This document shows positions 1 to 46,106 of a stretch of DNA of 46,106 bases, in pieces; position 1 is the stretch's first letter; each line of letters opens with the position of its first letter. The notes under the pieces are model-generated. The model searched no databases, had not been told where the DNA came from, and worked only from the letters and a program-made list of their open reading frames with translations. A program made the position numbers and the translations under genes. Source of the DNA: a virus (Duplodnaviria; Heunggongvirae; Uroviricota; Caudoviricetes); the IMG/VR virus record IMGVR_UViG_2563366942_000012, one strand, 5' to 3'.

Positions 1-1131
1 TCAAATGACCAGTTTTTTCCATTCCTTACCGCGTGCGTCGTTGTAAATATCGGTCATTTTTTGATTCGAATGGCCTAGCAAAATTTTGGTATCAACCCCC
101 TGCTCTCTGAACAATCGCTCTGATAAAGATCTCTGCTCATGGAAAGAGGGAGGGGTGCCATTAGCACGCCAGTTGTAATCCACAGAATCCCGGGCTTTTT
201 TAAATGCAACGGTTAATGTTGCTGGCTTAACCATCCCGCCGCGCTTAGCTGTCCCTTTCGCGTGATGGTGGTGCAATAGCCACGGACTAAGAACGCAATC
301 GCGGCAGGATGACACCACATCATCTAGGGTGAGATTTAATTTATCGCAACGCAGAGCCAGAGGGATGGCAATCCGGGTTCCTGTTTTTTGCTGTTCGACA
401 TGAAGATAACCATCCCGGATATCCGAAAATTGCATTTTGCAAATATCTGAAAGGCGCTGGCCTGTCATCAGTGCCAGCAGCATACCGCGCTGTAAAAAGT
501 AACCATCCTTTTCCGCTGCGTTATAAATCATCATCCACTCATCAAAAGTCAGTCGCTGTCTTGATATCCGCACCTGCGGTTTTTTTGCCGATTCTGCAGG
601 GTTAAAGCCTGGCGGGACATCGCCCGTTTGCTGAGCTTCCCGGAAAACATCGATCAGTACTTTCCTGAAAATTTGTCCCATTCTGTTATGTCCTCTGGCC
701 TTGTACTCTTCCAGTACTGATACCACATCTTTTACGGTTATGGCATCTAACGGTCTGGTGCCAAAACGTTCATCAAATACCCTGAGAGGGGCCGCTTTCT
801 GTTTCAGCGTGTTGAGTTTGATCTCGCCGTTTTCATATCTTTCCTGTTGAATTTTTCTGTAATTATTCAGAAAAATGGTAACGGTTGATGAACCGCCGGT
901 ATCACTAATAATTTTCTCCTGCAGACTGAGCATTTGTTCCATTTGCTGCCGGGCAAGACGGCTGTTCGCTTCTGCTGCAATAGTTTCTGCCAGTTTCTGG
1001 TCAATACTGCCGAGACCGTGATTTTTGCCTGTTATGGGATGCCTGTAACGCCAGTAAACTTTGTTATTTCTTTTGTCAAAATACGGAGATAATCCCGGAA
1101 CATCGGTTTTATATTTTCGCGGGCGCGCCAT
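1..1131 (-). CDS. int: Phage integrase (tyrosine recombinase)
   Basis: 376 aa ORF at prophage edge, overlapped at its 5' end by an excisionase-like ORF; C-terminal region typical of tyrosine recombinases; GAGGA Shine-Dalgarno 6 nt upstream of ATG. Confidence 0.85.
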   Translation of the reverse strand: MARPRKYKTDVPGLSPYFDKRNNKVYWRYRHPITGKNHGLGSIDQKLAETIAAEANSRLARQQMEQMLSLQEKIISDTGGSSTVTIFLNNYRKIQQERYENGEIKLNTLKQKAAPLRVFDERFGTRPLDAITVKDVVSVLEEYKARGHNRMGQIFRKVLIDVFREAQQTGDVPPGFNPAESAKKPQVRISRQRLTFDEWMMIYNAAEKDGYFLQRGMLLALMTGQRLSDICKMQFSDIRDGYLHVEQQKTGTRIAIPLALRCDKLNLTLDDVVSSCRDCVLSPWLLHHHHAKGTAKRGGMVKPATLTVAFKKARDSVDYNWRANGTPPSFHEQRSLSERLFREQGVDTKILLGHSNQKMTDIYNDARGKEWKKLVI

Positions 1132-16672: not shown

Positions 16673-18526
16673 ATGGCATTTAAACACTATGACGTGGTCA
16701 GGGCGGCATCGCCGTCAGACCTTGCGAAACGACTGACACAAAAACTGAAGGAGGGCTGGCAGCCGTTTGGTAGTCCGGTGGCCATAACCCCTTATACCCT
16801 GATGCAGGCGATTGCAGCAGAAGGTGATGTGGTCGTCAGTGGTGCAACTGAGCCGGAGTGGTACTACGTCATCGTACTGGCCGGGCAATCCAATGCCATG
16901 GCTTACGGTGAAGGGCTTCCGCTTCCGGATTCATACGATGCGCCCCATCCGCGCATTAAGCAACTGGCCCGTCGTAACACAGTGACTCCCGGTGGTGAAG
17001 TATGCGTATTTAACGACATCATTCCTGCTGACCATTGTCTGCATGATGTTCAGGATATGAGTACGATTAACCATCCCCGGGCTGACCTGAGCAAAGGGCA
17101 GTACGGCTGTGTCGGACAGGGCTTACATATTGCCAAAAAACTGCTTCCGTATATCCCTAATAATGCGGGGATCCTGCTGGTACCATGCTGTCGTGGTGGT
17201 TCGGCATTCACCCAGGGCACGGAGGGGACATTCAGCGAGTCCACGGGAGCCAGTCAGGATTCGGCTCGCTGGGGAGTGGGTAAGCCGTTATATCAGGATC
17301 TGCTTTTCCGCACGAAGGCAGCATTGCAGAAAAACCCGAAAAACGTTTTGCTGGCGATATGCTGGATGCAGGGGGAATTCGATATGACGAATGCCAGTTA
17401 CGCCCAGCAGCCAGCAGCATTTCTTGCAATGGTACAGCAGTTCCGTGCTGACCTTGCCGGGCTGGCGGCGCAGTGTCACGGTGGAAGTCCGGCATCAGTC
17501 CCCTGGATTTGTGGCGACACGACATACGCGTGGAAACAAGAACACGGTACGCAATATGAAGTGGTATATGGTGCATATAAAGGTAAAGAATCCCAGCAGA
17601 TTTATTTTGTTCCCTTTATGACCGATGGTAGCGGAGTTAATACACCGACAAACAACCCGTCAGAAGATCCTGATATTGCCGGGTCTGGTTATTACGGTTC
17701 GGCATCCCGAACGAACAAAAACTGGGTATCATCAAATCGCCCGACGCATTTCAGCTCATGGGCGCGTCGTGGCATTATTCCCGATCGTATGGCAACTGCT
17801 ATTCTGAACGTAGCCGGTCGCACCTTAGCCTTCATTAGTGGTAAGGCACCGGAAATCAAACCCTCGCCCGGCGGCGACACGCCATCGGGGCCGTCTGAAG
17901 ATGCATCCATACGCACAATCTCCCTGTTGCCGACAGCCGGAGACGCTGCTGCGCAGGGCTGGAGCATTAAGAATGGCGGAATTCAGTTGTCAGATGGTGT
18001 ATTTAAGATCACCAAGCAGAGCAATAAAGCCTGGTCCCTGACGCGCCCGGTGGATGACGCAGTCTCCCTGCTGACACGGGGTGGCAGACTGAGCTGTAAG
18101 TTTCGACTGTCAGGCGCACTGACCAACAACCAGTTCGGTCTGGGAATTTATCTGTATACCGATGTAGCGTTACCTGACGTCGTGGCGATGACCGGGACTG
18201 GTAACCCGTTCCTGATGTCGTTCTTCACCCAGACCACAGACGGCAAACTGAATCTGATGCATCACAAGAAAGCAGGAAACACAAAGTTGGGCGAGTTCGG
18301 GAATTACAGTAACGACTGGCAGACGCTGGAGCTGGTGTTCACCGCCGGCAGTGCCACGGTTACTCCGAAACTGAATGGAGTGGCTGGCCCGGCATTCCAG
18401 GTCATAAAAGACAGTCTGACACTGGGGCTGAATGCGCTGACGCTGACGGATATTACCAAAAATGCAGCGTATGGCGTTGAGATAGAAAGTCTGGTGCTGG
18501 AGATAAATGCACCGGCATCATCATAA
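16673..18526 (+). CDS. nanS-p: NanS-p-type sialate O-acetylesterase (SGNH/SASA domain)
   Basis: 617 aa; N-terminal MAFKHYDVVRA segment, esterase motif VIVLAGQSNAMAYGE; lies between the tRNA region and the holin as in Stx phages; GGGAGGA Shine-Dalgarno. Confidence 0.8.
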   Translation: MAFKHYDVVRAASPSDLAKRLTQKLKEGWQPFGSPVAITPYTLMQAIAAEGDVVVSGATEPEWYYVIVLAGQSNAMAYGEGLPLPDSYDAPHPRIKQLARRNTVTPGGEVCVFNDIIPADHCLHDVQDMSTINHPRADLSKGQYGCVGQGLHIAKKLLPYIPNNAGILLVPCCRGGSAFTQGTEGTFSESTGASQDSARWGVGKPLYQDLLFRTKAALQKNPKNVLLAICWMQGEFDMTNASYAQQPAAFLAMVQQFRADLAGLAAQCHGGSPASVPWICGDTTYAWKQEHGTQYEVVYGAYKGKESQQIYFVPFMTDGSGVNTPTNNPSEDPDIAGSGYYGSASRTNKNWVSSNRPTHFSSWARRGIIPDRMATAILNVAGRTLAFISGKAPEIKPSPGGDTPSGPSEDASIRTISLLPTAGDAAAQGWSIKNGGIQLSDGVFKITKQSNKAWSLTRPVDDAVSLLTRGGRLSCKFRLSGALTNNQFGLGIYLYTDVALPDVVAMTGTGNPFLMSFFTQTTDGKLNLMHHKKAGNTKLGEFGNYSNDWQTLELVFTAGSATVTPKLNGVAGPAFQVIKDSLTLGLNALTLTDITKNAAYGVEIESLVLEINAPASS

Positions 18527-37602: not shown

Positions 37603-40600
37603 ATGGGTAAAGGCAGCAGTAAGGGGCATACCCCGCGCGAAGCGAAGGACAACCTGAAATCCACGCAGTTGCTGAGTGTGATCGATGCCATCAGCGAAGG
37701 GCCGATAGAAGGTCCGGTGGATGGATTAAAAAGCGTGCTGCTGAACAGTACGCCGGTGCTGGACAGTGAGGGGAATACCAACATCGCCGGTGTCACGGTG
37801 GTGTTCCTGGCTGGTGAGCAGGAGCAGACTCCGCCGGAGGGATTTGAATCCTCCGGCTCCGAGAAGGTGCTGGGTACGGAAGTGAAATACGACACGCCGA
37901 TCATCCGGACCATCACGTCTGCAAACATCGACCGTCTGCGTTTTACCTTCGGTGTGCAGGCTCTGGTGGAAACCACCTCAAAAGGGGACCGGAATCCATC
38001 GGAAGTCCGCCTGCTGGTTCAGATACAACGTAACGGTGGCTGGGTGACGGAAAAAGACATCACCATTAAGGGCAAAACCACCTCGCAGTATCTGGCATCG
38101 GTAGTGGTGGATAACCTGCCGCCGCGCCCGTTTAATATCCGGATGCGCAGGATGACGCCGGACAGCACCACAGACCAGCTGCAGAACAAAACGCTCTGGT
38201 CGTCATACACCGAAATCATCGATGTGAAACAGTGCTACCCGAACACGGCACTGGTCGGCGTGCAGGTGGAGTCGGAACAGTTCGGCAGTCAGCAGGTGAG
38301 CCGTAATTATCATCTTCGCGGGCGTATTCTGCAGGTGCCGTCGAACTATAACCCGCAGACGCGGCAATACAGCGGTATCTGGGACGGAACGTTTAAGCCA
38401 GCATACAGCAACAACATGGCCTGGTGTCTGTGGGATATGCTGACCCATCCGCGCTACGGCATGGGGAAACGTCTTGGTGCGGCGGATGTGGATAAATGGG
38501 CGCTGTATGTCATCGGCCAGAATTGCGACCAGTCGGTGCCGGATGGCTTTGGTGGCACGGAGCCGCGCATCACCTGTAATGCGTACATGACCACGCAGCG
38601 CAAGGCGTGGGATGTGCTCAGTGATTTCTGCTCGGCGATGCGCTGTATGCCGGTATGGAACGGGCAGACGCTGACGTTCGTGCAGGACCGACCATCAGAT
38701 AAGGTGTGGACCTATAACCGCAGTAATGTGGTGATGCCGGATGATGGCGCGCCGTTCCGCTACAGCTTCAGCGCCCTGAAGGACCGCCATAATGCCGTTG
38801 AGGTGAACTGGATTGACCCGAATAATGGCTGGGAGACGGCGACAGAGCTTGTTGAAGATACGCAGGCCATTGCCCGTTACGGTCGTAACGTCACGAAGAT
38901 GGATGCTTTTGGCTGTACCAGTCGGGGGCAGGCACACAGAGCCGGGCTGTGGCTGATTAAAACGGAACTGCTGGAAACGCAGACCGTGGACTTCAGCGTG
39001 GGTGCCGAAGGGCTTCGCCATGTGCCGGGCGATGTCATTGAAATCTGTGATGATGACTATGCCGGTATCAGCACCGGTGGTCGTGTGCTGGCGGTGAACA
39101 GCCAGACGCGGACGCTGACGCTCGACCGTGAAATCACGCTGCCATCCTCCGGTACCACGCTGATAAGCCTGGTTGACGGACAGGGGAATCCGGTCAGCGT
39201 GGAGGTTCAGTCCGTCACCGACGGCGTGAAGGTAAAAGTGAGCCGTGTTCCTGACGGCGTTGCTGAATACAGCGTGTGGGGGCTGAAGCTGCCGACGCTG
39301 CGCCAGCGCCTGTTCCGCTGCGTGAGTATCCGTGAGAACGACAACGGCACGTATGCCATCACCGCCGTGCAGCATGTGCCGGAGAAAGAGGCCATCGTGG
39401 ATAACGGGGCGCACTTTGACGGCGACCAGAGCGGCACGGTGAACGGGGTCACACCGCCAGCAGTGCAGCATCTGACTGCCGAAGTCACCGCAGACAGCGG
39501 GGAATACCAGGTGCTGGCGCGCTGGGATACGCCGAAGGTGGTGAAGGGCGTGAGCTTTATGCTTCGTCTGACCGTGGCAGCGGATGACGGCAGTGAGCGG
39601 CTGGTCAGCACGGCCAGGACGACGGAAACCACATACCGCTTCACGCAACTGGCGCTGGGAAACTACAGGCTGACAGTCCGGGCGGCAAATGCCTGGGGGC
39701 AGCAGGGCGATCCGGCATCGGTATCGTTCCGGATTGCCGCACCGGCAGCGCCGTCGCGGATTGAGCTGACGCCGGGCTATTTTCAGATAACCGCCACGCC
39801 GTATCTTGCCGTTTATGATCCGACGGTACAGTTTGAGTTCTGGTTCTCGGAAACGCGGATTACCGATATCAGGCAGGTTGAAACCACAGCCCGCTACCTT
39901 GGCACGGGGCTGTACTGGATAGCCGCCAGTATCAATATCAAACCGGGCCATGATTATTACTTTTATATCCGCAGTGTGAACACCGTTGGCAAATCGGCAT
40001 TCGTGGAGGCCGTCGGTCGGGCGAGCGATGATGCGGAAGGTTACCTGGATTTTTTCAAAGGCAAGATAACCGAATCCCATCTCGGTAAAGAGCTGCTGAA
40101 AAAAGTCGACCTGACGGAGGATAACGCCAGCAGACTGGATGAGTTTTCGAAAGAGTGGAAGGACGCTAACGATAAATGGAATGCTATGTGGGGCGTCAAA
40201 ATTGAGCAGACCAAAGACGGCAAACATTATGTCGCGGGTATTGGCCTCAGCATGGAGGACACGGAGGAAGGCAAGCTGAGCCAGTTTCTGGTTGCCGCCA
40301 ATCGTATCGCGTTTATTGACCCGGCAAACGGGAATGAAACGCCGATGTTTGTGGCGCAGGGCAACCAGATATTCATGAACGACGTGTTCCTGAAACGCCT
40401 GACGGCTCCCACCATTACCAGCGGTGGAAATCCGCCGGCATTTTCCCTGACACCGGACGGAAAGCTGACCGCTAAAAATGCGGATATCAGCGGTAATGTG
40501 AATGCAAATTCAGGGACGCTCAACAACGTCACGATTAACGAGAACTGTCGGGTTCTGGGAAAACTGTCCGCGAACCAGATTGAAGGCGATCTCGTTAAAA

Positions 40601-40998
40601 CAGTGGGCAAAGCTTTCCCCCGGGACTCCCGTGCACCGGAGCGGTGGCCATCAGGGACCATTACCGTCAGGGTTTATGACGATCAGCCGTTTGACCGGCA
40701 AATTGTTATTCCTGCGGTGGCTTTCAGCGGTGCCAGACATGAGCGGGAGAATAGCGATACTTATTCGTCATGCCGCCTGATAGTGAAGAAAAACGGGGCT
40801 GAAATTTATAACCGAACGGCTCTGGATAATACGCTGATATACACGGGTGTTATTGATATGCCTGCAGGCAGTGGCGTAATGACACTGGAGTTTTCTGTAT
40901 CAGCATGGTGGGTAAATGGTTGGTATCCCACAGCAAGTATCAGCGATTTGCTGGTTGTTGTGATGAAGAAAGCCACTGCAGGCATCACGATTAGCTGA
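37603..40998 (+). CDS. J: Host specificity / central tail fibre protein gpJ
   Basis: 1131 aa; size, position and fibronectin-III-like middle region match lambda J. Confidence 0.9.
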
Positions 40999-41015
40999 AT
41001 TTTATAACCCAGATA

Positions 41016-41045
41016 CGGGCGCCAGAAATGGCGCCTTTTTTATTG
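41016..41045 (+). terminator. Rho-independent terminator after J
   Basis: GGCGCC-AGAAAT-GGCGCC hairpin followed by TTTTTT. Confidence 0.7.
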
Positions 41046-41065
41046 CAGAAAAGCGAGAGGTAATT

Positions 41066-41665
41066 ATGCGTAAATTATGTGCTGTTATTCTGTCCGCAGT
41101 AGTCTGGCTGGTTGCCGCTGGTACGCCAGCGAGTGCAGCAGAGCATCAGTCCACACTAAGCTCCGGGTATATTCAGTCCCATACTGATATGCCCGGCAAC
41201 GATGACCTGAAGGGCATTAACGTGAAATACCGTTATGAATTTACGGACACGCTGGGGCTGGTGACGTCATTCAGTTATGCTGGAGACAAGAATCGCCAGA
41301 TTACCCGTTACAGTGATACCCGCTGGCATGAAGATTCAGTGCGTAACCGCTGGTTCAGCATGATGGCGGGGCCATCTGTGCGCGTGAATGAGTGGTTCAG
41401 CGCATATGCGATGGCGGGTGTGGCTTACAGCCGTGTTTCGACTTTCTCCGGGGATTATCTCCGCGTAACTGACAACAAGGGGAAAACGCACGATGTGCTG
41501 ACCGCAAGTGATGATGGTCGCCACAGTAACACGTCTCTGGCGTGGGGGGCTGGCGTGCAGTTTAACCCGACCGAATCCGTGGCCATTGATATTGCTTATG
41601 AAGGCTCCGGCAGTGGTGACTGGCGCACTGACGGTTTTATCGTGGGTGTCGGTTATAAATTCTGA
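41066..41665 (+). CDS. lom: Lom outer membrane protein (Ail/Lom family)
   Basis: 199 aa with signal peptide and beta-barrel pattern ending in aromatic residue; bracketed by terminators (moron arrangement). Confidence 0.85.
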
Positions 41666-41677
41666 TTAGCAGTGTTA

Positions 41678-41710
41678 TGACAGCCCGCATATTCTGGCGG
41701 GCTTTTTTGT
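41678..41710 (+). terminator. Rho-independent terminator after lom
   Basis: CAGCCCGC-ATATTCTG-GCGGGCTT hairpin followed by TTTTT. Confidence 0.7.
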
Positions 41711-41713
41711 GGG

Positions 41714-43549
41714 GTGGATATGGCAGCAGTAAAAATCTCAGGTGTGCTGAAAGATGGTGCGGGAAAACCAATACAGAACTGCACTATTCAACTGAAGGCA
41801 AAACGTAACAGCACAACGGTTGTGGTGAACACGGTGGCCTCAGAAAATCCGGATGAAGCCGGGCGTTACAGTATGGATGTTGAGTATGGCCAGTACAGCG
41901 TTATCCTGCTGGTTGAAGGTTTTCCGCCTTCACATGCCGGGACCATTACCGTTTATGAAGGTTCCAGACCAGGTACGCTGAATGATTTTCTGACTGCCCC
42001 CGACGAAGGCGACCTGAAGCCAGATGTGGTGAAACGATTTGAAGATTTGACAAGTCAGGCGCGACGAAGTGCAGATGTGGCAATATCAGCGACAAAAAGG
42101 GCAGAAGCGTTACTGTCTGAAATGCAGGGAATAGCCGATAGTTTTCCCGGTTTGCGCTTTGAGAACTTTGACGACATCGTGAGTCGTTGCACTACTGCAA
42201 TGTTAAAACTGGAACAACCCGAGGTTGTTGATACATCAATATCTTTAAAAATAAAAGAAAATATCGATTTTAATTATGTCGGTGCAGTTAACGGATATTG
42301 CGATATTTCTGAACCAGAAAAGTATAAAGTCGAAATGTATGCTTATACAACCGGAGAGTATTTTAACGGCGACGCTAATTTGAATAGTGACGGAACTTTC
42401 TATTTCAGACGTTGCTGGACGGGAGCAAAACAGTTTCGTCTTATTCGGATTGAGGATAATGCGTGGATCACAACGCTGGAGTTTCCACTGCTCATTCGTA
42501 GCTACTGGATGCCGGAGGACGCAGACCCCGAAGTGATCAGGGTGATGAAAGATCGGTGTTACACGTATGACCAGGCGCTGGCAGCACTGGCGTTGATGGT
42601 TCAGCGACATGAGGCTGTAGAAAGATACGTTGCGGGCTTGTGTGCGCTTGTTGATGAAAACGGTGGAGTAAAGTTTTTTGTTAACAGGCTGTCTGCCATG
42701 TCACCGCGTACCTATTACCGCTTGGGCAATGCGGCATGGGTTTATTATGCTCTTGCTTTCTATCTGGAGAAGTATCCGGACGGTACTCAGACTGCGCGGG
42801 TCAGAGAAAAGCTATTGGCAGGCATTGCCTGGCTGGATACTTTTCTGGTGAGCACACCAGGCGACCTGCGTGAAGGCCTGTATAAAGGGGGGCAGGGGCG
42901 TTATGTGGACGGCAATTTTGATGAAACTTTCGTCGCCGAATGGTGCGCACTGGAGCATAACGTTGATATCTGGTTTTTGTTTGAACTGATGGGACGGCTG
43001 GGATTTGACGGTTTCAGTGAGCGGGCTGACAGGCTGGCAAAGAGTATCATCAGAGGTCTGTGGGTGGAAGATGAAGGCCGATTTCGACAGGGGGTTCATT
43101 CAACCCACTATGACAACGCAGCGGCGCTGGATCAGTCTTCCTGGGGCGGATTGTTTGTTGCCAATATTGATGCTGAGAAAGCGGCTAAGTGCCGAAAATA
43201 TATGGGGCGTTTTTTATTTGGTACGAGGGAAACCACGGGTTACACACCGTACCACCCTGATTATGGTTATAGTGGTCACAGCCGTGGCGTGTGGGTGGAA
43301 GGAACGGCAGGTGTGGCACTTTTTGAGCGCAAGCTGGGTAATGAGCTGAATGCGGTGAATCTTGTGGCAGCAATGGCTCCACTTTTTAATGAGTACGGTT
43401 ATCGTGATTCTTGCGATAACCTGGCATACGATGTGCTGCCTTCCTGGCCATCAACAACAAACACTGCCTGGATCATTCTGGCTGTAAAGCCAGATAATTT
43501 CTGGTTAGTGGATTCGCCAGAAATGGATGTAGGGACAATCCGCTATTGA
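41714..43549 (+). CDS. Chimeric side-tail-fibre-like protein: lambda Stf-like N-terminal domain fused to a non-fibre C-terminal domain, possibly an (alpha/alpha)-barrel glycan-active enzyme
   Basis: N-terminal 110 aa nearly identical to remembered lambda Stf (AVKISGVLKDGAGKPIQNCTIQLKAKRNSTTVVVN...); remainder lacks fibre repeats and is rich in Trp/Tyr helical segments; AT-rich junction at 42230..42450. Confidence 0.6.
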   Translation: MDMAAVKISGVLKDGAGKPIQNCTIQLKAKRNSTTVVVNTVASENPDEAGRYSMDVEYGQYSVILLVEGFPPSHAGTITVYEGSRPGTLNDFLTAPDEGDLKPDVVKRFEDLTSQARRSADVAISATKRAEALLSEMQGIADSFPGLRFENFDDIVSRCTTAMLKLEQPEVVDTSISLKIKENIDFNYVGAVNGYCDISEPEKYKVEMYAYTTGEYFNGDANLNSDGTFYFRRCWTGAKQFRLIRIEDNAWITTLEFPLLIRSYWMPEDADPEVIRVMKDRCYTYDQALAALALMVQRHEAVERYVAGLCALVDENGGVKFFVNRLSAMSPRTYYRLGNAAWVYYALAFYLEKYPDGTQTARVREKLLAGIAWLDTFLVSTPGDLREGLYKGGQGRYVDGNFDETFVAEWCALEHNVDIWFLFELMGRLGFDGFSERADRLAKSIIRGLWVEDEGRFRQGVHSTHYDNAAALDQSSWGGLFVANIDAEKAAKCRKYMGRFLFGTRETTGYTPYHPDYGYSGHSRGVWVEGTAGVALFERKLGNELNAVNLVAAMAPLFNEYGYRDSCDNLAYDVLPSWPSTTNTAWIILAVKPDNFWLVDSPEMDVGTIRY

Positions 43550-43610
43550 CTCTCTTGTTGTTTGATAAACCGACAAAAGGATAAATATCAGCGATCCATT
43601 CTGTGCTGTT

Positions 43611-43675
43611 TGATTGTGCGCTCCCCGCTCAGAATTGCGCGTCAATTAGCCTATAAAAAATCGCGAAGATACAAT
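43611..43675 (+). repeat. About 65 bp element, copy A (repeated at 45435..45500)
   Basis: TGTGCGCTCCCCGC(T/C)CAG(A/C)ATTGCGCGTCAATTAGCC followed by an A-run and ACAAT; the two copies bracket the tfa/methyltransferase cargo block. Confidence 0.6.
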
Positions 43676-43876
43676 ACGTACTTCATTGCGCTTGAACACC
43701 CCAGGCATAATATCGCTGGATTGAAATGTTCGGACATGGCAAGCGAATGAATATGCCGTGGTGGGGCGGTTTTGATCCGCGCGCGTGGGATGTGGCAAGC
43801 CTGATGGATTTTGCTGTGCCGGTGGTGGCGTGTCTGCTGGTCTGGCTGTTGGTTAATCGTGGGTGAAAAAAGGTGA

Positions 43877-44005
43877 GCTGTATATGCAACGGAGGAAGAA
43901 ACCTCGTTGCTGGAAGCCTGGAAAAAGTATCGGGTGTTGCTGAACCGTGTTGATACATCAACTGCACCTGATATTGAGTGGCCTGTGAACCCTGTCAGGG
44001 AGTAA
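43877..44005 (+). pseudogene. Remnant of tail fibre assembly gene tfa (C-terminal 42 codons, no start)
   Basis: Encodes ...[39 protein letters not shown], matching the lambda Tfa C-terminus; the frame opens directly after an in-frame stop. Confidence 0.7.
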
Positions 44006-44059
44006 TCATTGGGATTATGCCGCAGCACGTCTTAAGCAAGAACGTGCTGCGGTTGGATG

Positions 44060-44728
44060 CTATTTTTTCCCTGAAGCGGAAAACATTACTACAGTACCTT
44101 GAACCTTGGTTTTAACATTCTCGAAATGCTCTGAGAGTATATGTGTTAAGCCTTCTTCGGAATCTTTTGTGTTTGAAAAGATGCCTTTCTGATTGTAAAT
44201 GCGCATCAGTTTTTGACCGAAGCTATTGTGCACAACTCCATCGCCAAGAATTGTGGCTCCGTATAGAGTTCCATCGTCAGTTAAGGCCTGCGCCGCATTG
44301 CGTATTACACAGCTTTTTGTAGATATATTTCCAGGCAGGCAGTGAAGAAGGTAAAACATGGAAATGGAATCAAATTGACCATGTAACGTCGCGGGATAAG
44401 GTTCAAAAACATCATGGCTAATTTTATGTTTAATTTTTGATTCCCCAGCCCTTGTAGATGCCGCGTTCAGGCTAGCTTCGTTCAAATCCATTAAAGATAT
44501 CAGACTACTCTCAGGTACGTGAGTAAGGTAAAACCCAGTTCCAACACCAATATCCAGATGGTTGTTACCTAAATGTTCCAGAAAGTGTGGAAGAAGGTGT
44601 TCCTTTGTAGGACATCCCCATGCAAGCCGATTTGATACTCCCAAAACCCACCAGTCATAAAGCTTTAGGGTAAGTGGTGTGTAAATTTTAGCCCCATCAT
44701 CTGTGTTTTTTTTCATTAATTTCACCAT
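44060..44728 (-). CDS. Class I SAM-dependent methyltransferase (cargo gene)
   Basis: 222 aa with AdoMet-binding motif I DIGVGTGFY and acidic motif-II-like LMDLNE; AT-rich codon usage unlike the flanking phage genes; flanked by direct repeats of the tfa 3' end. Confidence 0.65.
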   Translation of the reverse strand: MVKLMKKNTDDGAKIYTPLTLKLYDWWVLGVSNRLAWGCPTKEHLLPHFLEHLGNNHLDIGVGTGFYLTHVPESSLISLMDLNEASLNAASTRAGESKIKHKISHDVFEPYPATLHGQFDSISMFYLLHCLPGNISTKSCVIRNAAQALTDDGTLYGATILGDGVVHNSFGQKLMRIYNQKGIFSNTKDSEEGLTHILSEHFENVKTKVQGTVVMFSASGKK

Positions 44729-44784
44729 GTTATAGTTTTATTTGTGAATTAAATCAATTATGGCGATGAATTACAAGGGGTTAA

Positions 44785-45054
44785 ATGCTGCCGCAGCATA
44801 GCGATATTGAAATAGCCTGGTATGCTTCGATACAGCAGGAGCCGAATGGCTGGAAGACCGTCACCACACAGTTCTACATCCAGGAATTCAGTGAGTATAT
44901 TGCGCCACTGCAGGATGCTGTAGATCTGGAAATCGCAACGGAGGAAGAAAGATCGTTGCTGGAGGCATGGAATAAATATCGGGTATTGTTGAATCGTGTT
45001 GATACATCAACTGCACCTGATATTGAGTGGCCTGCAAATCCTGTCAGGGAGTAA
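44785..45054 (+). CDS. Truncated tail fibre assembly protein (Tfa C-terminal half)
   Basis: 89 aa; C-terminal 50 residues match lambda Tfa ([51 protein letters not shown]); about half the length of full Tfa, so possibly non-functional. Confidence 0.55.
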
Positions 45055-45434
45055 TCATTGGGATTATGCCGCAGACACGTCGTATGCAGGAACGTGCTGC
45101 GGTTAGTTTGTGAGCTTTCGATAGTGGTTGTTATTTTTGCCCTTATTTGTTCCGGAGGCCCTGGTTCAATGGTCCGTCTGCCCCCTGTGGTGATGTCAGC
45201 AAAATCAGCCACTGCGCGAACCACAATAGCCCGGGAAGATGCTGAAGATCACCAGGTAAAGCTGTCAGCGCAGAAACTGGAAGAACTGCTCGCATCAATG
45301 GTTAAGGATGAGGTTGATCGCAATGATGGGATTTATTGACGTCAGCGAGAGCAGAAGGAAGAACTGAATAACCTGAATGATTTACGCTCAATCAGAGCGA
45401 TGATGATTGGCAGTAATTAGCGGTCAATTTCGGT

Positions 45435-45500
45435 TTTTTTGGCTGTGCGCTCCCCGCCCAGCATTGCGCGTCAATTAGCCCCAAAAAAACGAAAAAGTTA
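45435..45500 (+). repeat. About 65 bp element, copy B
   Basis: Direct repeat of 43611..43675 located in the AT-rich arm just inside the right prophage junction. Confidence 0.6.
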
Positions 45501-45651
45501 CAATCAAGTAAAAAATCCCTTCTGCAAAACTAAAAAAGATTTCAATAAAATCAGACAGTTAAAAACATAAAAAAAAGGTACAAAAAAGCATCTCAAAGTC
45601 TTGTTTTTTGCTTCAAATACAATTGGTTATTGTGTTTTTTGAAACCTACCA

Positions 45652-45768
45652 GTGTGGTACATGGATATCGATACCACCGCCAATTATAAACTGGGCGGTG
45701 CACAGCAACACGATAGCGTACGCCTCGATCCGTGGGTGTTTATGTTCTCAGCAGGATATCGTTTTTAA
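45652..45768 (+). pseudogene. ompW: ompW 3'-terminal fragment at the right prophage junction (attR-associated)
   Basis: Encodes ...WYMDIDTTANYKLGGAQQHDSVRLDPWVFMFSAGYRF-stop, matching the OmpW C-terminus, with no upstream ORF; preceded by AT-rich phage-arm DNA. Confidence 0.65.
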
Positions 45769-45827
45769 TTCCGCACAAAAACGACCCCGTAATATACGGG
45801 GTCAATAAGGACATGGTATAAAGGGTA

Positions 45828-46106
45828 TTATTTCTTCGCTTCTACGCCATCAGTTTCAGAGCGAATTAAAAATTTCTCAGTTGTTTGCGGAATATGCTGA
45901 ATCAGCCAGTCGGCCATTTGCTTTTCCTCATTTAAAATCGCTTCGATGGTTGGAATTGAAGCTGTATCACCGGCATTTTTTGCTGCTGCTAAGAGTGAGG
46001 TGTAACAGGCGATTTCAAATTGCTCGAAGACATATCCGCTAATAGAGCCTTTGACTATTTCATCAGAAGGAAATATACCACCGATTGACTGCCCAAGCGC
46101 AGCCAT
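45828..46106 (-). CDS. yciE: Host gene yciE (ferritin-like DUF892 protein); 5' end truncated by the window edge
   Basis: 92 aa C-terminal portion ...AALGQSIGGIFPSDEIVKGSISGYVFEQFEIACYTSLLAAAKNAGD... matches remembered E. coli YciE; hairpin terminator downstream on the minus strand at about 45781..45805. Confidence 0.7.
   Translation of the reverse strand: MAALGQSIGGIFPSDEIVKGSISGYVFEQFEIACYTSLLAAAKNAGDTASIPTIEAILNEEKQMADWLIQHIPQTTEKFLIRSETDGVEAKK

What the first reader, a model, noticed from the sequence alone, without database searches (positions are those of the whole stretch)
41714..43549. Chimeric tail-fibre protein: lambda Stf N-terminal anchor fused to a non-fibre, enzyme-like C-terminal domain across an AT-rich junction
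The first 110 residues are almost identical to the lambda side-tail-fibre N-terminus that attaches the fibre to the tail. The following 500 residues have none of the Gly/Ser/Thr-rich fibre repeats; they are rich in Trp/Tyr-containing helical segments (WVYYALAFY, WLDTFLV, DIWFLFELMGRLG, SSWGGLF), reminiscent of (alpha/alpha)6-barrel glycan-active enzymes. The DNA at 42230..42450 is sharply AT-rich, consistent with a recombination junction. Only fragments of tfa lie downstream, so the canonical Stf/Tfa receptor-binding module has been replaced. This may be a fibre-displayed depolymerase or glycan-binding domain of unknown specificity.
Basis: partly seen in the sequence, partly recalled or inferred. 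Interest (0 to 1): 0.6.

Follow-up and report, generated by a model that had tools for sequence, protein, structure and literature searches.

The report
Side tail fibre tipped with glycosidase-like barrel
A lambda-like prophage of E. coli carries a side tail fibre whose usual receptor-binding tip is replaced by a sugar-cleaving-enzyme-like domain of an uncharacterised family, a rare but not unprecedented kind of phage host-recognition protein.

Summary
The ORF is real and intact: 41714..43549, with the likely true start at ATG 41720 (609 aa). It sits after J and lom in a complete lambdoid prophage.

- **Anchor.** Residues 5-130 are the lambda Stf N-terminal anchor (PF08400; 90% identical to the solved lambda fragment).
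- **Mobile module.** From residue 148 the protein is a module with no Pfam or NCBIfam model. It is an N-terminal beta-sandwich plus an (alpha/alpha)6 barrel (AlphaFold pLDDT 87).
- **Recombination.** The same module joins other virion anchors at the same residue. It is under strong purifying selection (dN/dS 0.05-0.10).
- **Cellular relatives.** Distant stand-alone homologues lie beside processive GT2 polysaccharide synthases.
- **Conserved residues.** Invariant acidic residues E414, D473 and E529 sit at the N-terminal ends of barrel helices.

The AT-rich stretch is real, but it encodes the beta-sandwich subdomain. The fusion junction lies upstream, at 42104..42154.

Most likely this is a fibre-displayed glycan-binding and probably glycan-cleaving head. 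Its substrate is unknown. The module is rare (41 of 5426 complete E. coli genomes) and is often left unannotated in RefSeq.

The parts
41720..43549 (+). Coding sequence of the chimeric side tail fibre. It is 609 aa from ATG 41720; the mechanical ORF opens at GTG 41714. Residue numbers in this report count from the GTG.
   Evidence: ORF list. Sequence MAAVKISG at 41720. PGAP start in MS 21-1 at the equivalent base. Intact in L002, L003 and L004.
41726..42103 (+). N-terminal anchor domain (residues 5-130), lambda Stf type. It attaches the fibre to the tail tip.
   Evidence: PF08400 at E 5.5e-62. 9e7m_Ta 'Tail fiber protein' at E 1.7e-49, 82 of 91 residues identical. Predicted beta-sandwich.
42020..42136 (+). 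Long predicted alpha-helix (residues about 103-141), probably the trimeric coiled-coil stalk between anchor and head.
   Evidence: Full-length AlphaFold model has helix 101-139 in ATG numbering, at low pLDDT as a monomer. Coiled-coil trimerisation is inferred, not tested.
42104..42154 (+). Interval containing the fusion junction (residues 131-147).
   Evidence: Similarity to lambda-type Stf proteins ends at residue 110-131. Similarity to module-bearing proteins with other anchors starts at residue 148-150.
42155..43546 (+). Mobile C-terminal module (residues 148-611), shared by proteins with at least five different N-terminal architectures.
   Evidence: PHROGs 13714, 4128 and 7032, 'tail fiber protein'. 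No Pfam or NCBIfam hit. dN/dS 0.05-0.10.
42242..42481 (+). Beta-sandwich subdomain of the module (residues 177-256).
   Evidence: Strands at fragment residues 39-118 of the model. GC 0.375 against 0.511 for the barrel. Same GC offset in three other alleles.
42527..43492 (+). (alpha/alpha)6-barrel, six-hairpin glycosidase-like domain (residues 272-593).
42953..42955 (+). E414 (motif ALEHNVD). Invariant. Candidate general acid.
   Evidence: Invariant in alignments A3 and A5. Lies at the N-terminal end of model helix 275-290. Catalytic role is inferred.
43130..43132 (+). D473 (motif ALDQSSW). Invariant. Candidate substrate-binding or catalytic residue.
   Evidence: Invariant in A3 and A5. Lies at the N-terminal end of model helix 333-345.
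43298..43300 (+). E529 (motif VWVEGTAG). Invariant. Candidate general base.
   Evidence: Invariant in A3 and A5. Lies at the N-terminal end of model helix 390-402. Its relative position along the barrel resembles the MmpH base E262 (PMC9883506). Inferred.
43886..44025 (+). First tfa 3' remnant. No intact fibre-assembly chaperone gene follows the fibre gene.
   Evidence: PGAP 'tail fiber assembly protein, incomplete' at the equivalent place in MS 21-1. Direct repeat with 44935..45074, 91% identical.
44785..45054 (+). Second tfa remnant (89-codon ORF).
   Evidence: PF02413 Caudo_TAP, profile positions 75-130 of 131 only.

Best explanation
The gene encodes a side tail fibre built from two parts.

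- The first about 130 residues are the lambda Stf anchor that plugs into the tail tip. A long helix follows, probably a trimeric coiled coil.
- From residue 148 the canonical fibre shaft and tip are replaced by a self-contained head. The head is a beta-sandwich followed by an (alpha/alpha)6 'six-hairpin' barrel, the fold of many glycoside hydrolases.

The head most likely binds a polysaccharide on the E. coli surface. It probably hydrolyses that polysaccharide through the invariant acidic residues E414 and E529, with D286, D418 and D473 lining the site. This would give the phage reversible first contact and a way through a glycan layer before J engages its protein receptor.

Because the head is a globular domain that should fold on its own, no Tfa chaperone is needed. 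That fits the decay of tfa downstream.

Shown here: the domain composition, the fold, the module boundary, the modular spread and the purifying selection.

Inferred: trimerisation, glycan binding, catalysis and the identity of the catalytic residues.

Unknown: the substrate. The same allele occurs in strains of different O types, and cellular homologues are linked to GT2 synthases. Both point towards a conserved, possibly beta-linked exopolysaccharide rather than an O antigen.
For: Domain composition and fold:
- PF08400 anchor and match to the solved lambda fragment.
- The gene follows J and lom.
- The model of residues 139-611 has pLDDT 86.8 and pTM 0.88, with a beta-sandwich plus six helical hairpins.
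- Three distant members weakly hit Pfam MGH1-like_GH and one each hits GH94 and GH88 (E 0.001-0.004), all glycoside hydrolase families.

Conserved site:
- Residues invariant across 45 sequences at 23-46% identity are Y285, G338, G393, E414, L472, D473 and E529. Nearly invariant are D286, R336, H415, D418, W477, W527 and W586.
- Most of these fall at the N-terminal ends of alternate barrel helices, where six-hairpin enzymes build their active site.
- The same invariants recur in the stand-alone bacterial subfamily.

Virion association:
- The module joins other virion anchors at residue 148-150: PF12571, PF18668, PF03406 and PF08400+PF03406.
- It is also fused to a T4 gp5 needle and to a podovirus nozzle.
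- It is annotated 'minor tail protein' in Microbacterium phages.

Function retained:
- dN/dS is 0.05-0.10.
- The gene is intact and 98.9% identical in the complete genome of phage phiSTEC1575-Stx2k.

Cellular homologues:
- In 5 of 5 loci examined they lie next to a PgaC/IcaA-like processive GT2 synthase, with TPR, HEAT-repeat and response-regulator genes.
- From my own knowledge, this mirrors operon-encoded glycanases such as BcsZ, PssZ, PslG and AlgL.

Annotation:
- PGAP names the free-standing C-terminal fragment 'glucosidase family protein'.
Against: - No enzymatic activity or binding has been measured.
- There is no sequence-level match to any glycoside hydrolase family. Pfam and NCBIfam give nothing, and a family profile finds nothing among PDB sequences.
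- The six-hairpin fold also houses epimerases, lyases, cyclases and binding-only domains.
- The full-length monomer model is of low confidence in the stalk, and the oligomeric state is untested.
- In jumbo phage ph0011 the homologue is a stand-alone gene among small hypothetical genes, not in an annotated tail cluster.
- The cellular homologues share only about 25-30% identity, so their context is weak evidence for the substrate.
Confidence: 0.6

Rival explanations
1. Binding-only head. The six-hairpin domain is a catalytically dead, lectin-like receptor-binding domain. It recognises a glycan, or even a protein, without cleaving it.
Against: The acidic residues E414, D473 and E529 are invariant from enterobacterial phages to myxobacterial chromosomal proteins at about 25% identity. 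That pattern is typical of catalytic sites rather than of binding sites that track variable receptors. Cellular homologues sit in polysaccharide-synthase clusters where glycanases are expected.
Confidence: 0.22
2. Different chemistry on the same fold. The head is a polysaccharide lyase or a sugar epimerase/isomerase-type enzyme rather than a hydrolase.
Confidence: 0.08
3. Non-functional relic. The ORF is an accidental fusion or decaying remnant in a defective prophage, as the RefSeq pseudogene calls suggest.
For: PGAP marks only the first 139 codons as an 'incomplete' pseudogene in MS 21-1 and F9792. tfa is fragmented downstream. The gene is frameshifted in TW10690 and truncated in some ETEC genomes.
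Against: The 611-codon frame is uninterrupted here and in L002, L003 and L004. dN/dS is 0.05-0.10 against alleles with dS of 0.7 to over 2. The junction coincides with a recurrent module boundary. The gene is present in a deposited complete phage genome. The window carries a full set of integrase, head, tail, J and lom genes.
Confidence: 0.05

Closest known systems
Bacteriophage lambda side tail fibre Stf (Ur-lambda) with its chaperone Tfa
   Same: Same N-terminal anchor: PF08400, and 90% identity to the solved lambda fragment 9e7m_Ta. Same gene position after J and lom.
   Different: No fibre-repeat shaft and no Stf/gp37-like tip. No intact tfa gene. The distal 464 residues are a globular two-domain enzyme-like head.
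GH15-type (alpha/alpha)6 enzymes (dextran dextrinase 9ju0, GH15-related 5z3a, glucodextranase 1ulv) and the mycobacterial endo-mannanase MmpH (7qsj)
   Different: Only 10-13% identity. No PF00723 or other glycoside hydrolase Pfam hit. A family profile finds no PDB sequence. Catalytic residue equivalence was not established. Those enzymes act on alpha-glucans or alpha-mannans, and nothing shows that here.
Phage tailspike and tail-fibre depolymerases, including the rare 'alpha/alpha toroid' class
   Same: Modular design of a conserved N-terminal virion anchor plus an exchangeable carbohydrate-active head. Alpha/alpha toroid folds were seen in about 1% of predicted phage depolymerases (PMC11326577, PMC12491483).
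   Different: Most depolymerases are trimeric right-handed beta-helices or beta-propellers. This head is a six-hairpin barrel on a lambda Stf anchor. No member of this sequence family was found described or assayed in the literature searched.
Operon-encoded glycanases of synthase-dependent exopolysaccharide systems (e.g. BcsZ and PssZ, GH8 (alpha/alpha)6 enzymes)
   Different: No GH8 sequence signature. The bacterial gene cluster (GT2, HATPase_c protein, response regulator, 1200-aa HEAT protein) is itself uncharacterised. The phage module is only about 25-30% identical to those proteins.

Membership tests
Lambda-type side tail fibre (Stf) | N-terminal tail-attachment domain (PF08400) | tested here: met
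   E 5.5e-62, profile positions 2-127 of 134. 9e7m_Ta at E 1.7e-49.
Lambda-type side tail fibre (Stf) | Gene located after J and lom in the late operon | tested here: met
   J at 37603..40998 and lom at 41066..41665 (PF06316, E 2e-120), then this gene.
Lambda-type side tail fibre (Stf) | Fibre shaft repeats and an Stf/gp37-like receptor-binding tip | tested here: not met
   No PF03406 or other fibre family beyond residue 130. The predicted structure is globular.
Lambda-type side tail fibre (Stf) | Intact cognate Tfa chaperone gene directly downstream | tested here: not met
   Only 3' remnants are present: PF02413 positions 75-130, and PGAP 'incomplete' calls.
Six-hairpin glycosidase superfamily ((alpha/alpha)6 barrel) | Twelve-helix (alpha/alpha)6 barrel fold | tested here: met
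Six-hairpin glycosidase superfamily ((alpha/alpha)6 barrel) | Conserved carboxylates at the N-terminal ends of the inner helices forming the active-site funnel | tested here: inconclusive
   E414, D473, E529, D286 and D418 are invariant or nearly so, and lie at helix N-termini in the model's secondary structure. Their three-dimensional clustering could not be inspected.
Six-hairpin glycosidase superfamily ((alpha/alpha)6 barrel) | Glycosidic-bond cleavage | not testable with these tools
   Needs a biochemical assay.
CAZy GH15 (glucoamylase, glucodextranase, dextran dextrinase) | Sequence membership (Pfam PF00723 or significant similarity to a GH15 member) | tested here: not met
   No Pfam hit at E up to 1 for the query. 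None of 45 family members hit GH15. The family profile against PDB sequences gave 0 hits. hhalign against a recalled A. niger glucoamylase sequence gave probability 0.1.
CAZy GH15 (glucoamylase, glucodextranase, dextran dextrinase) | Glu general acid and Glu general base in equivalent positions | tested here: inconclusive
   Two invariant Glu exist (E414, E529) at roughly comparable relative positions, but no structural superposition was available.
Beta-helix tailspike depolymerases | Right-handed parallel beta-helix catalytic domain | tested here: not met
   The model is a beta-sandwich plus a helical barrel. The only Beta_helix Pfam hit was in one distant multi-domain relative.

The most novel reading that the evidence does not exclude
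The module founds a glycoside hydrolase family not yet defined, with both phage and cellular branches. The cellular members would be the dedicated glycanases of an uncharacterised synthase-dependent exopolysaccharide system (GT2 synthase, TPR, HEAT-repeat protein, response regulator). Phages of many lineages would have captured the domain onto fibres, nozzles and needles. In E. coli the fibre head would then target a conserved beta-linked matrix polysaccharide such as poly-N-acetylglucosamine or cellulose rather than O antigen or capsule. That would give a serotype-independent, biofilm-matrix-directed adsorption device.
Probability: 0.25. Interest if true: 0.6.

Novelty: new member of a known kind. 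Interest (0 to 1): 0.4.

Why it matters
Enzymatic receptor-binding proteins decide phage host range and are sought as anti-biofilm and anti-capsule reagents. Almost all characterised ones are beta-helices or propellers.

This module is a compact head that probably folds on its own, without a chaperone. Nature has already transplanted it onto at least five anchor types at one fixed boundary (residue 148). That makes it an attractive cassette for fibre engineering.

It also points to an unassigned six-hairpin family whose cellular members sit in an uncharacterised exopolysaccharide gene cluster.

In practice, RefSeq annotation often truncates this gene to a 139-codon 'pseudogene' and leaves the enzyme-like 1.4 kb unannotated. 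Surveys of prophage depolymerases that rely on annotated proteins will therefore miss it.

Tried and rejected
- **AT-rich stretch as recombination junction: rejected.** The boundary maps to residues 131-147. The low GC belongs to the beta-sandwich subdomain in four divergent alleles. dS is similar in the sandwich and the barrel.
- **Frameshift or two-gene fusion: rejected**.
- **Sequence-level assignment to a known enzyme family: nothing found.** Pfam and NCBIfam on the query gave nothing beyond the anchor. Pfam on 45 relatives gave only marginal six-hairpin hits. A family-profile search of PDB sequences gave 0 hits. hhalign against a glucoamylase sequence written from memory gave no alignment. 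That sequence was not verified, so this counts for little.
- **Gifsy-1 Stf, which targets LPS core Gal II, as a possible relative: rejected.** That Stf is a canonical fibre about 51% identical to Ur-lambda Stf throughout (PMC12312913). No Salmonella phage record holds the barrel.
- **Literature search for this family: nothing specific.** I tried six-hairpin, toroid, glucosidase plus tail fibre, and Stx2k phage tail. Only the generic recognition of alpha/alpha toroid depolymerase folds turned up.
- **Second homologue search with the mixed alignment A3:** it mostly re-found close relatives.
- **Cluster-member names for distant relatives:** uninformative.
- **Rfam scan of 41000..46106:** nothing relevant above gathering scores.
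- **The 46-aa ORF downstream as a conserved partner: rejected.** It is intact only in the nearest relatives and has an internal deletion in others.
Full report
**Observation**

The window holds a 611-codon ORF at 41714..43549 on the plus strand. The mechanical ORF opens at a GTG. Two codons in, ATG 41720 gives MAAVKISG..., the lambda Stf start, and it is the start PGAP uses in the nearly identical strain MS 21-1. Residue numbers below count from the GTG.

- Residues 5-130 match PF08400 (prophage tail fibre N-terminal) at E 5.5e-62.
- Residues 5-95 are identical at 82 of 91 positions to the lambda tail-fibre fragment solved in 9e7m and 9mgh.
- Beyond residue 130 there is no Pfam or NCBIfam hit. 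Three PHROG families labelled only 'tail fiber protein' cover the rest.
- GC falls to 0.33-0.39 around 42100-42400, against 0.52 for the window.
- Downstream there are only two 3' remnants of tfa, at 43886..44025 and 44785..45054. They are 91% identical over their shared part and flank a minus-strand class I SAM methyltransferase gene.

**Context**

The window is a complete lambdoid prophage.

- A lambda-type integrase lies at 1..1131 on the minus strand.
- Head and tail genes follow, then J (37603..40998, 1131 aa) and lom (41066..41665).
- Next come this gene, the tfa remnants, an ompW fragment and yciE.

The fibre gene is 98.9% identical at protein level to the 'tail protein' of Escherichia phage phiSTEC1575-Stx2k, a deposited complete phage genome. 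A later paper refers to the previously isolated Stx2k phage as long-tailed (PMC12029490).

**The ORF is not an artefact**

- The same 1836-nt frame is uninterrupted in MS 21-1, F9792 and phiSTEC1575-Stx2k, with 1-7 amino-acid differences.
- Against two diverged alleles (dS 0.7 to over 2), dN/dS is 0.06 and 0.045 for the barrel, and 0.096 and 0.085 for residues 148-256.
- PGAP nevertheless annotates only the first 139 codons in MS 21-1 and F9792, as an 'incomplete' pseudogene, and leaves the remaining 1.4 kb without a feature. Most of the listed genomes show no annotated feature under the module.
- In TW10690, where a real frameshift exists, the free C-terminal piece is named 'glucosidase family protein'.

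**Where the junction is**

- tblastn against phages shows similarity to lambda-type Stf proteins ending at residue 110-131.
- BLASTP against proteins that carry the C-terminal part behind unrelated N-termini starts at residue 148-150 in more than fifteen cases.
- The fusion point is therefore within residues 131-147, nt 42104..42154.
- The AT-rich DNA (42242..42481, GC 0.375) encodes residues 177-256, a beta-sandwich inside the module.
- The same segment has lower GC than the barrel in three other alleles. These include a phage-plasmid copy and a jumbo-phage copy (0.417 vs 0.494, 0.379 vs 0.464, 0.247 vs 0.356).

The low GC is a property of that subdomain's coding sequence, not a recombination scar.

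**What the module is**

An AlphaFold model of residues 139-611, built on 27 homologues, has mean pLDDT 86.8 and pTM 0.88. It shows a short helix, a beta-sandwich (fragment residues 39-118) and a helical-hairpin barrel (fragment 134-455).

| Search | Result |
|---|---|
| Foldseek vs BFVD viral structures | One close relative, F9VHN7 (585 aa, E 3.6e-20) |

Sequence methods place the domain in no defined family.

- Of 45 distant relatives, three marginally hit MGH1-like_GH and one each hit GH94 and GH88.
- A family profile finds no PDB sequence.

Membership of a specific glycoside hydrolase family, GH15 included, is not met.

**Conserved site**

An all-against-library HMMER search finds 490 clusters at 50% identity. 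In an alignment of 45 members at 23-46% identity to the query:

- The invariant positions are Y285, G338, G393, E414, L472, D473 and E529.
- Nearly invariant are D286, R336, H415, D418, W450, W477, W527 and W586. Residue identities were checked.

In the model these fall at or next to the N-terminal ends of helices 146-157, 199-215, 275-290, 333-345 and 390-402 (fragment numbering). These are alternate helices of the barrel. In six-hairpin enzymes that end of the barrel forms the active-site funnel (general knowledge; see the MmpH description in PMC9883506).

I infer E414 and E529 as the acid/base pair of an inverting hydrolase, with D286, D418 and D473 in sugar binding. This step is not shown, because I could not inspect coordinates or superpose structures.

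**A mobile virion module**

The module occurs behind several architectures:

- PF08400, as here;
- PF08400 plus PF03406 fibre repeats (907-aa Salmonella proteins);
- PF12571 (tail-collar fibre);
- PF18668 (tail fibre/spike N-terminal domain);
- PF03406 alone, or short N-termini with no recognised domain.

More distant copies are fused to a T4 gp5 C-terminal needle, to a podovirus nozzle protein and to PhoD-like phosphatase domains. In Microbacterium phages the homologue is annotated 'minor tail protein'.

It is rare. Only 16 of 50,697 phage records hold it, and 41 of 5426 complete E. coli genomes. The hosts have different serotypes (O18, O169:H41, O27:H7, O6:H16, several STEC) at 99% nucleotide identity or more. 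Close relatives occur in Yersinia, Salmonella and Citrobacter. That distribution argues against an O-antigen-specific receptor. This is an inference.

**Cellular relatives**

About 400-aa stand-alone homologues match the phage module at E 1e-21 to 1e-26. They form a large family of chromosomal 'hypothetical proteins', mostly from Myxococcota-like metagenome bins. They have a Cys-containing N-terminal consensus and the same invariant residues.

In all five loci examined the gene lies beside a roughly 500-aa GT2 glycosyltransferase. Its best NCBIfam match is the PNAG synthase PgaC/IcaA, at 104-132 bits, far below the 422-bit cut-off. The cluster also holds a TPR protein, a response regulator and a HEAT-repeat protein (about 1100-1200 aa in four loci, 364 aa in L014), and in four of the five loci an HATPase_c protein. 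In three loci the start of the gene overlaps the stop of the HEAT gene.

Synthase-dependent exopolysaccharide operons typically include a dedicated glycanase, for example BcsZ, PssZ, PslG, PgaB or AlgL (general knowledge). This context is independent support for a polysaccharide-cleaving role. Because GT2 enzymes invert, it hints at beta-linked substrates.

**Architecture and mechanism**

A full-length monomer model (pLDDT 67.8) gives, in ATG numbering:

| Residues | Element |
|---|---|
| 4-78 | Anchor beta-sandwich |
| 101-139 | Long low-confidence helix |
| 150-164 | Second helix |
| 175-254 | Beta-sandwich |
| 270-590 | Barrel |

I read the long helix as the coiled-coil stalk of a trimer carrying three independent heads. 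The best-supported account follows from this:

- The fibre docks on the tail tip through the Stf anchor.
- Its heads bind, and probably hydrolyse, a conserved surface or matrix polysaccharide.
- That speeds adsorption and clears the way for J.
- A globular head does not need Tfa, which fits the tfa decay downstream.

Rivals are a binding-only head, a lyase or epimerase-type chemistry, and a dead relic. The relic reading is contradicted by the intact frame, the purifying selection and the gene's presence in a complete phage genome.

**Comparison and novelty**

Enzymatic receptor-binding proteins with exchangeable heads are well known. An 'alpha/alpha toroid' class has been noted computationally in about 1% of predicted phage depolymerases (PMC11326577, PMC12491483).

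I found no description or assay of this particular sequence family, and no Pfam, NCBIfam or PDB representative. I therefore file it as a new member of a known kind: an enzymatic tail-fibre head from the six-hairpin superfamily, on a lambda Stf anchor. It is not a new kind of system.

Interest is moderate (0.4). The finding is correct and tidy, and the module boundary is useful for engineering. The link to an uncharacterised exopolysaccharide gene cluster is a real lead. A phage specialist would not be greatly surprised.

Noticed in passing
window 41720..43549; L002 6721-7137; L004 1221-1637: RefSeq/PGAP annotates only the first 139 codons of this intact gene, as an 'incomplete' pseudogene, and leaves the 1.4-kb enzyme-like part without any feature in most of the listed genomes that carry it. 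Protein-based surveys will miss the domain.
   Followed up: yes
L009 1084-9269, L011, L012, L013, L014: Stand-alone bacterial homologues of the barrel sit in a conserved, apparently uncharacterised cluster: a TPR protein, a PgaC-like GT2 synthase, a response regulator and a HEAT-repeat protein (about 1100-1200 aa in four loci, 364 aa in L014), with an HATPase_c protein in four of the five loci. This looks like a synthase-dependent exopolysaccharide system with its own glycanase.
   Followed up: partly
window 44060..44728 (-), flanked by 43886..44025 and 44935..45074: A class I SAM-dependent methyltransferase gene on the opposite strand lies between two 91%-identical 3' remnants of tfa. It looks like a cargo gene lodged in a duplicated, decayed tfa region.
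   Followed up: partly
window 43726..43866 (+): A 46-codon ORF with a hydrophobic C-terminal half (MFGHGKRMNMPWWGGFDPRAWDVASLMDFAVPVVACLLVWLLVNRG) follows the fibre gene. It is 86% conserved in phiSTEC1575-Stx2k and has an internal deletion in other strains. No family hit.
   Followed up: partly
window 43587..43660 and 45416..45489: A 74-nt direct repeat (78% identical) occurs just after the fibre gene and again near the prophage end by the ompW fragment. A similar sequence follows the fibre gene in strain C012 (L006). No Rfam match; function unknown.
   Followed up: partly
window 41682..41703: A terminator-like hairpin plus T-run follows lom, 17 nt before the fibre ATG. No promoter-like site was found in 40900..44100. 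Expression presumably depends on antiterminated late transcription.
   Followed up: no
window 16673..18526 (+): A 617-aa ORF combines DUF1737, a SASA sialate O-acetylesterase domain and DUF6645. From my own knowledge this resembles the NanS-p esterases of Stx-type prophages.
   Followed up: no
L005 5608-7092 (Escherichia phage ph0011, OP557969): A 348-kb jumbo phage encodes a 494-aa stand-alone copy of the module (59% identical in the barrel). It lies among small hypothetical genes near RNA ligase and kinase genes, not in an annotated tail cluster.
   Followed up: no
P0130, P0131, P0148, P0160 (metagenomic relatives): The barrel module is also fused to a T4 gp5-type needle, to a podovirus nozzle protein (1709 aa) and to PhoD-like phosphatase domains. 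These fusions are unusual and point to use of the domain at the point of cell-envelope penetration.
   Followed up: partly
L006 789-4400 (E. coli C012) and L007 (plasmid pSTEC388_1): The same PF08400-barrel gene sits directly after tail genes annotated 'tail protein X' and 'late control protein' at the same ompW/yciE locus in C012. A 625-aa variant lies on a 114-kb plasmid that carries phage tail genes. The module has moved between very different mobile elements.
   Followed up: no
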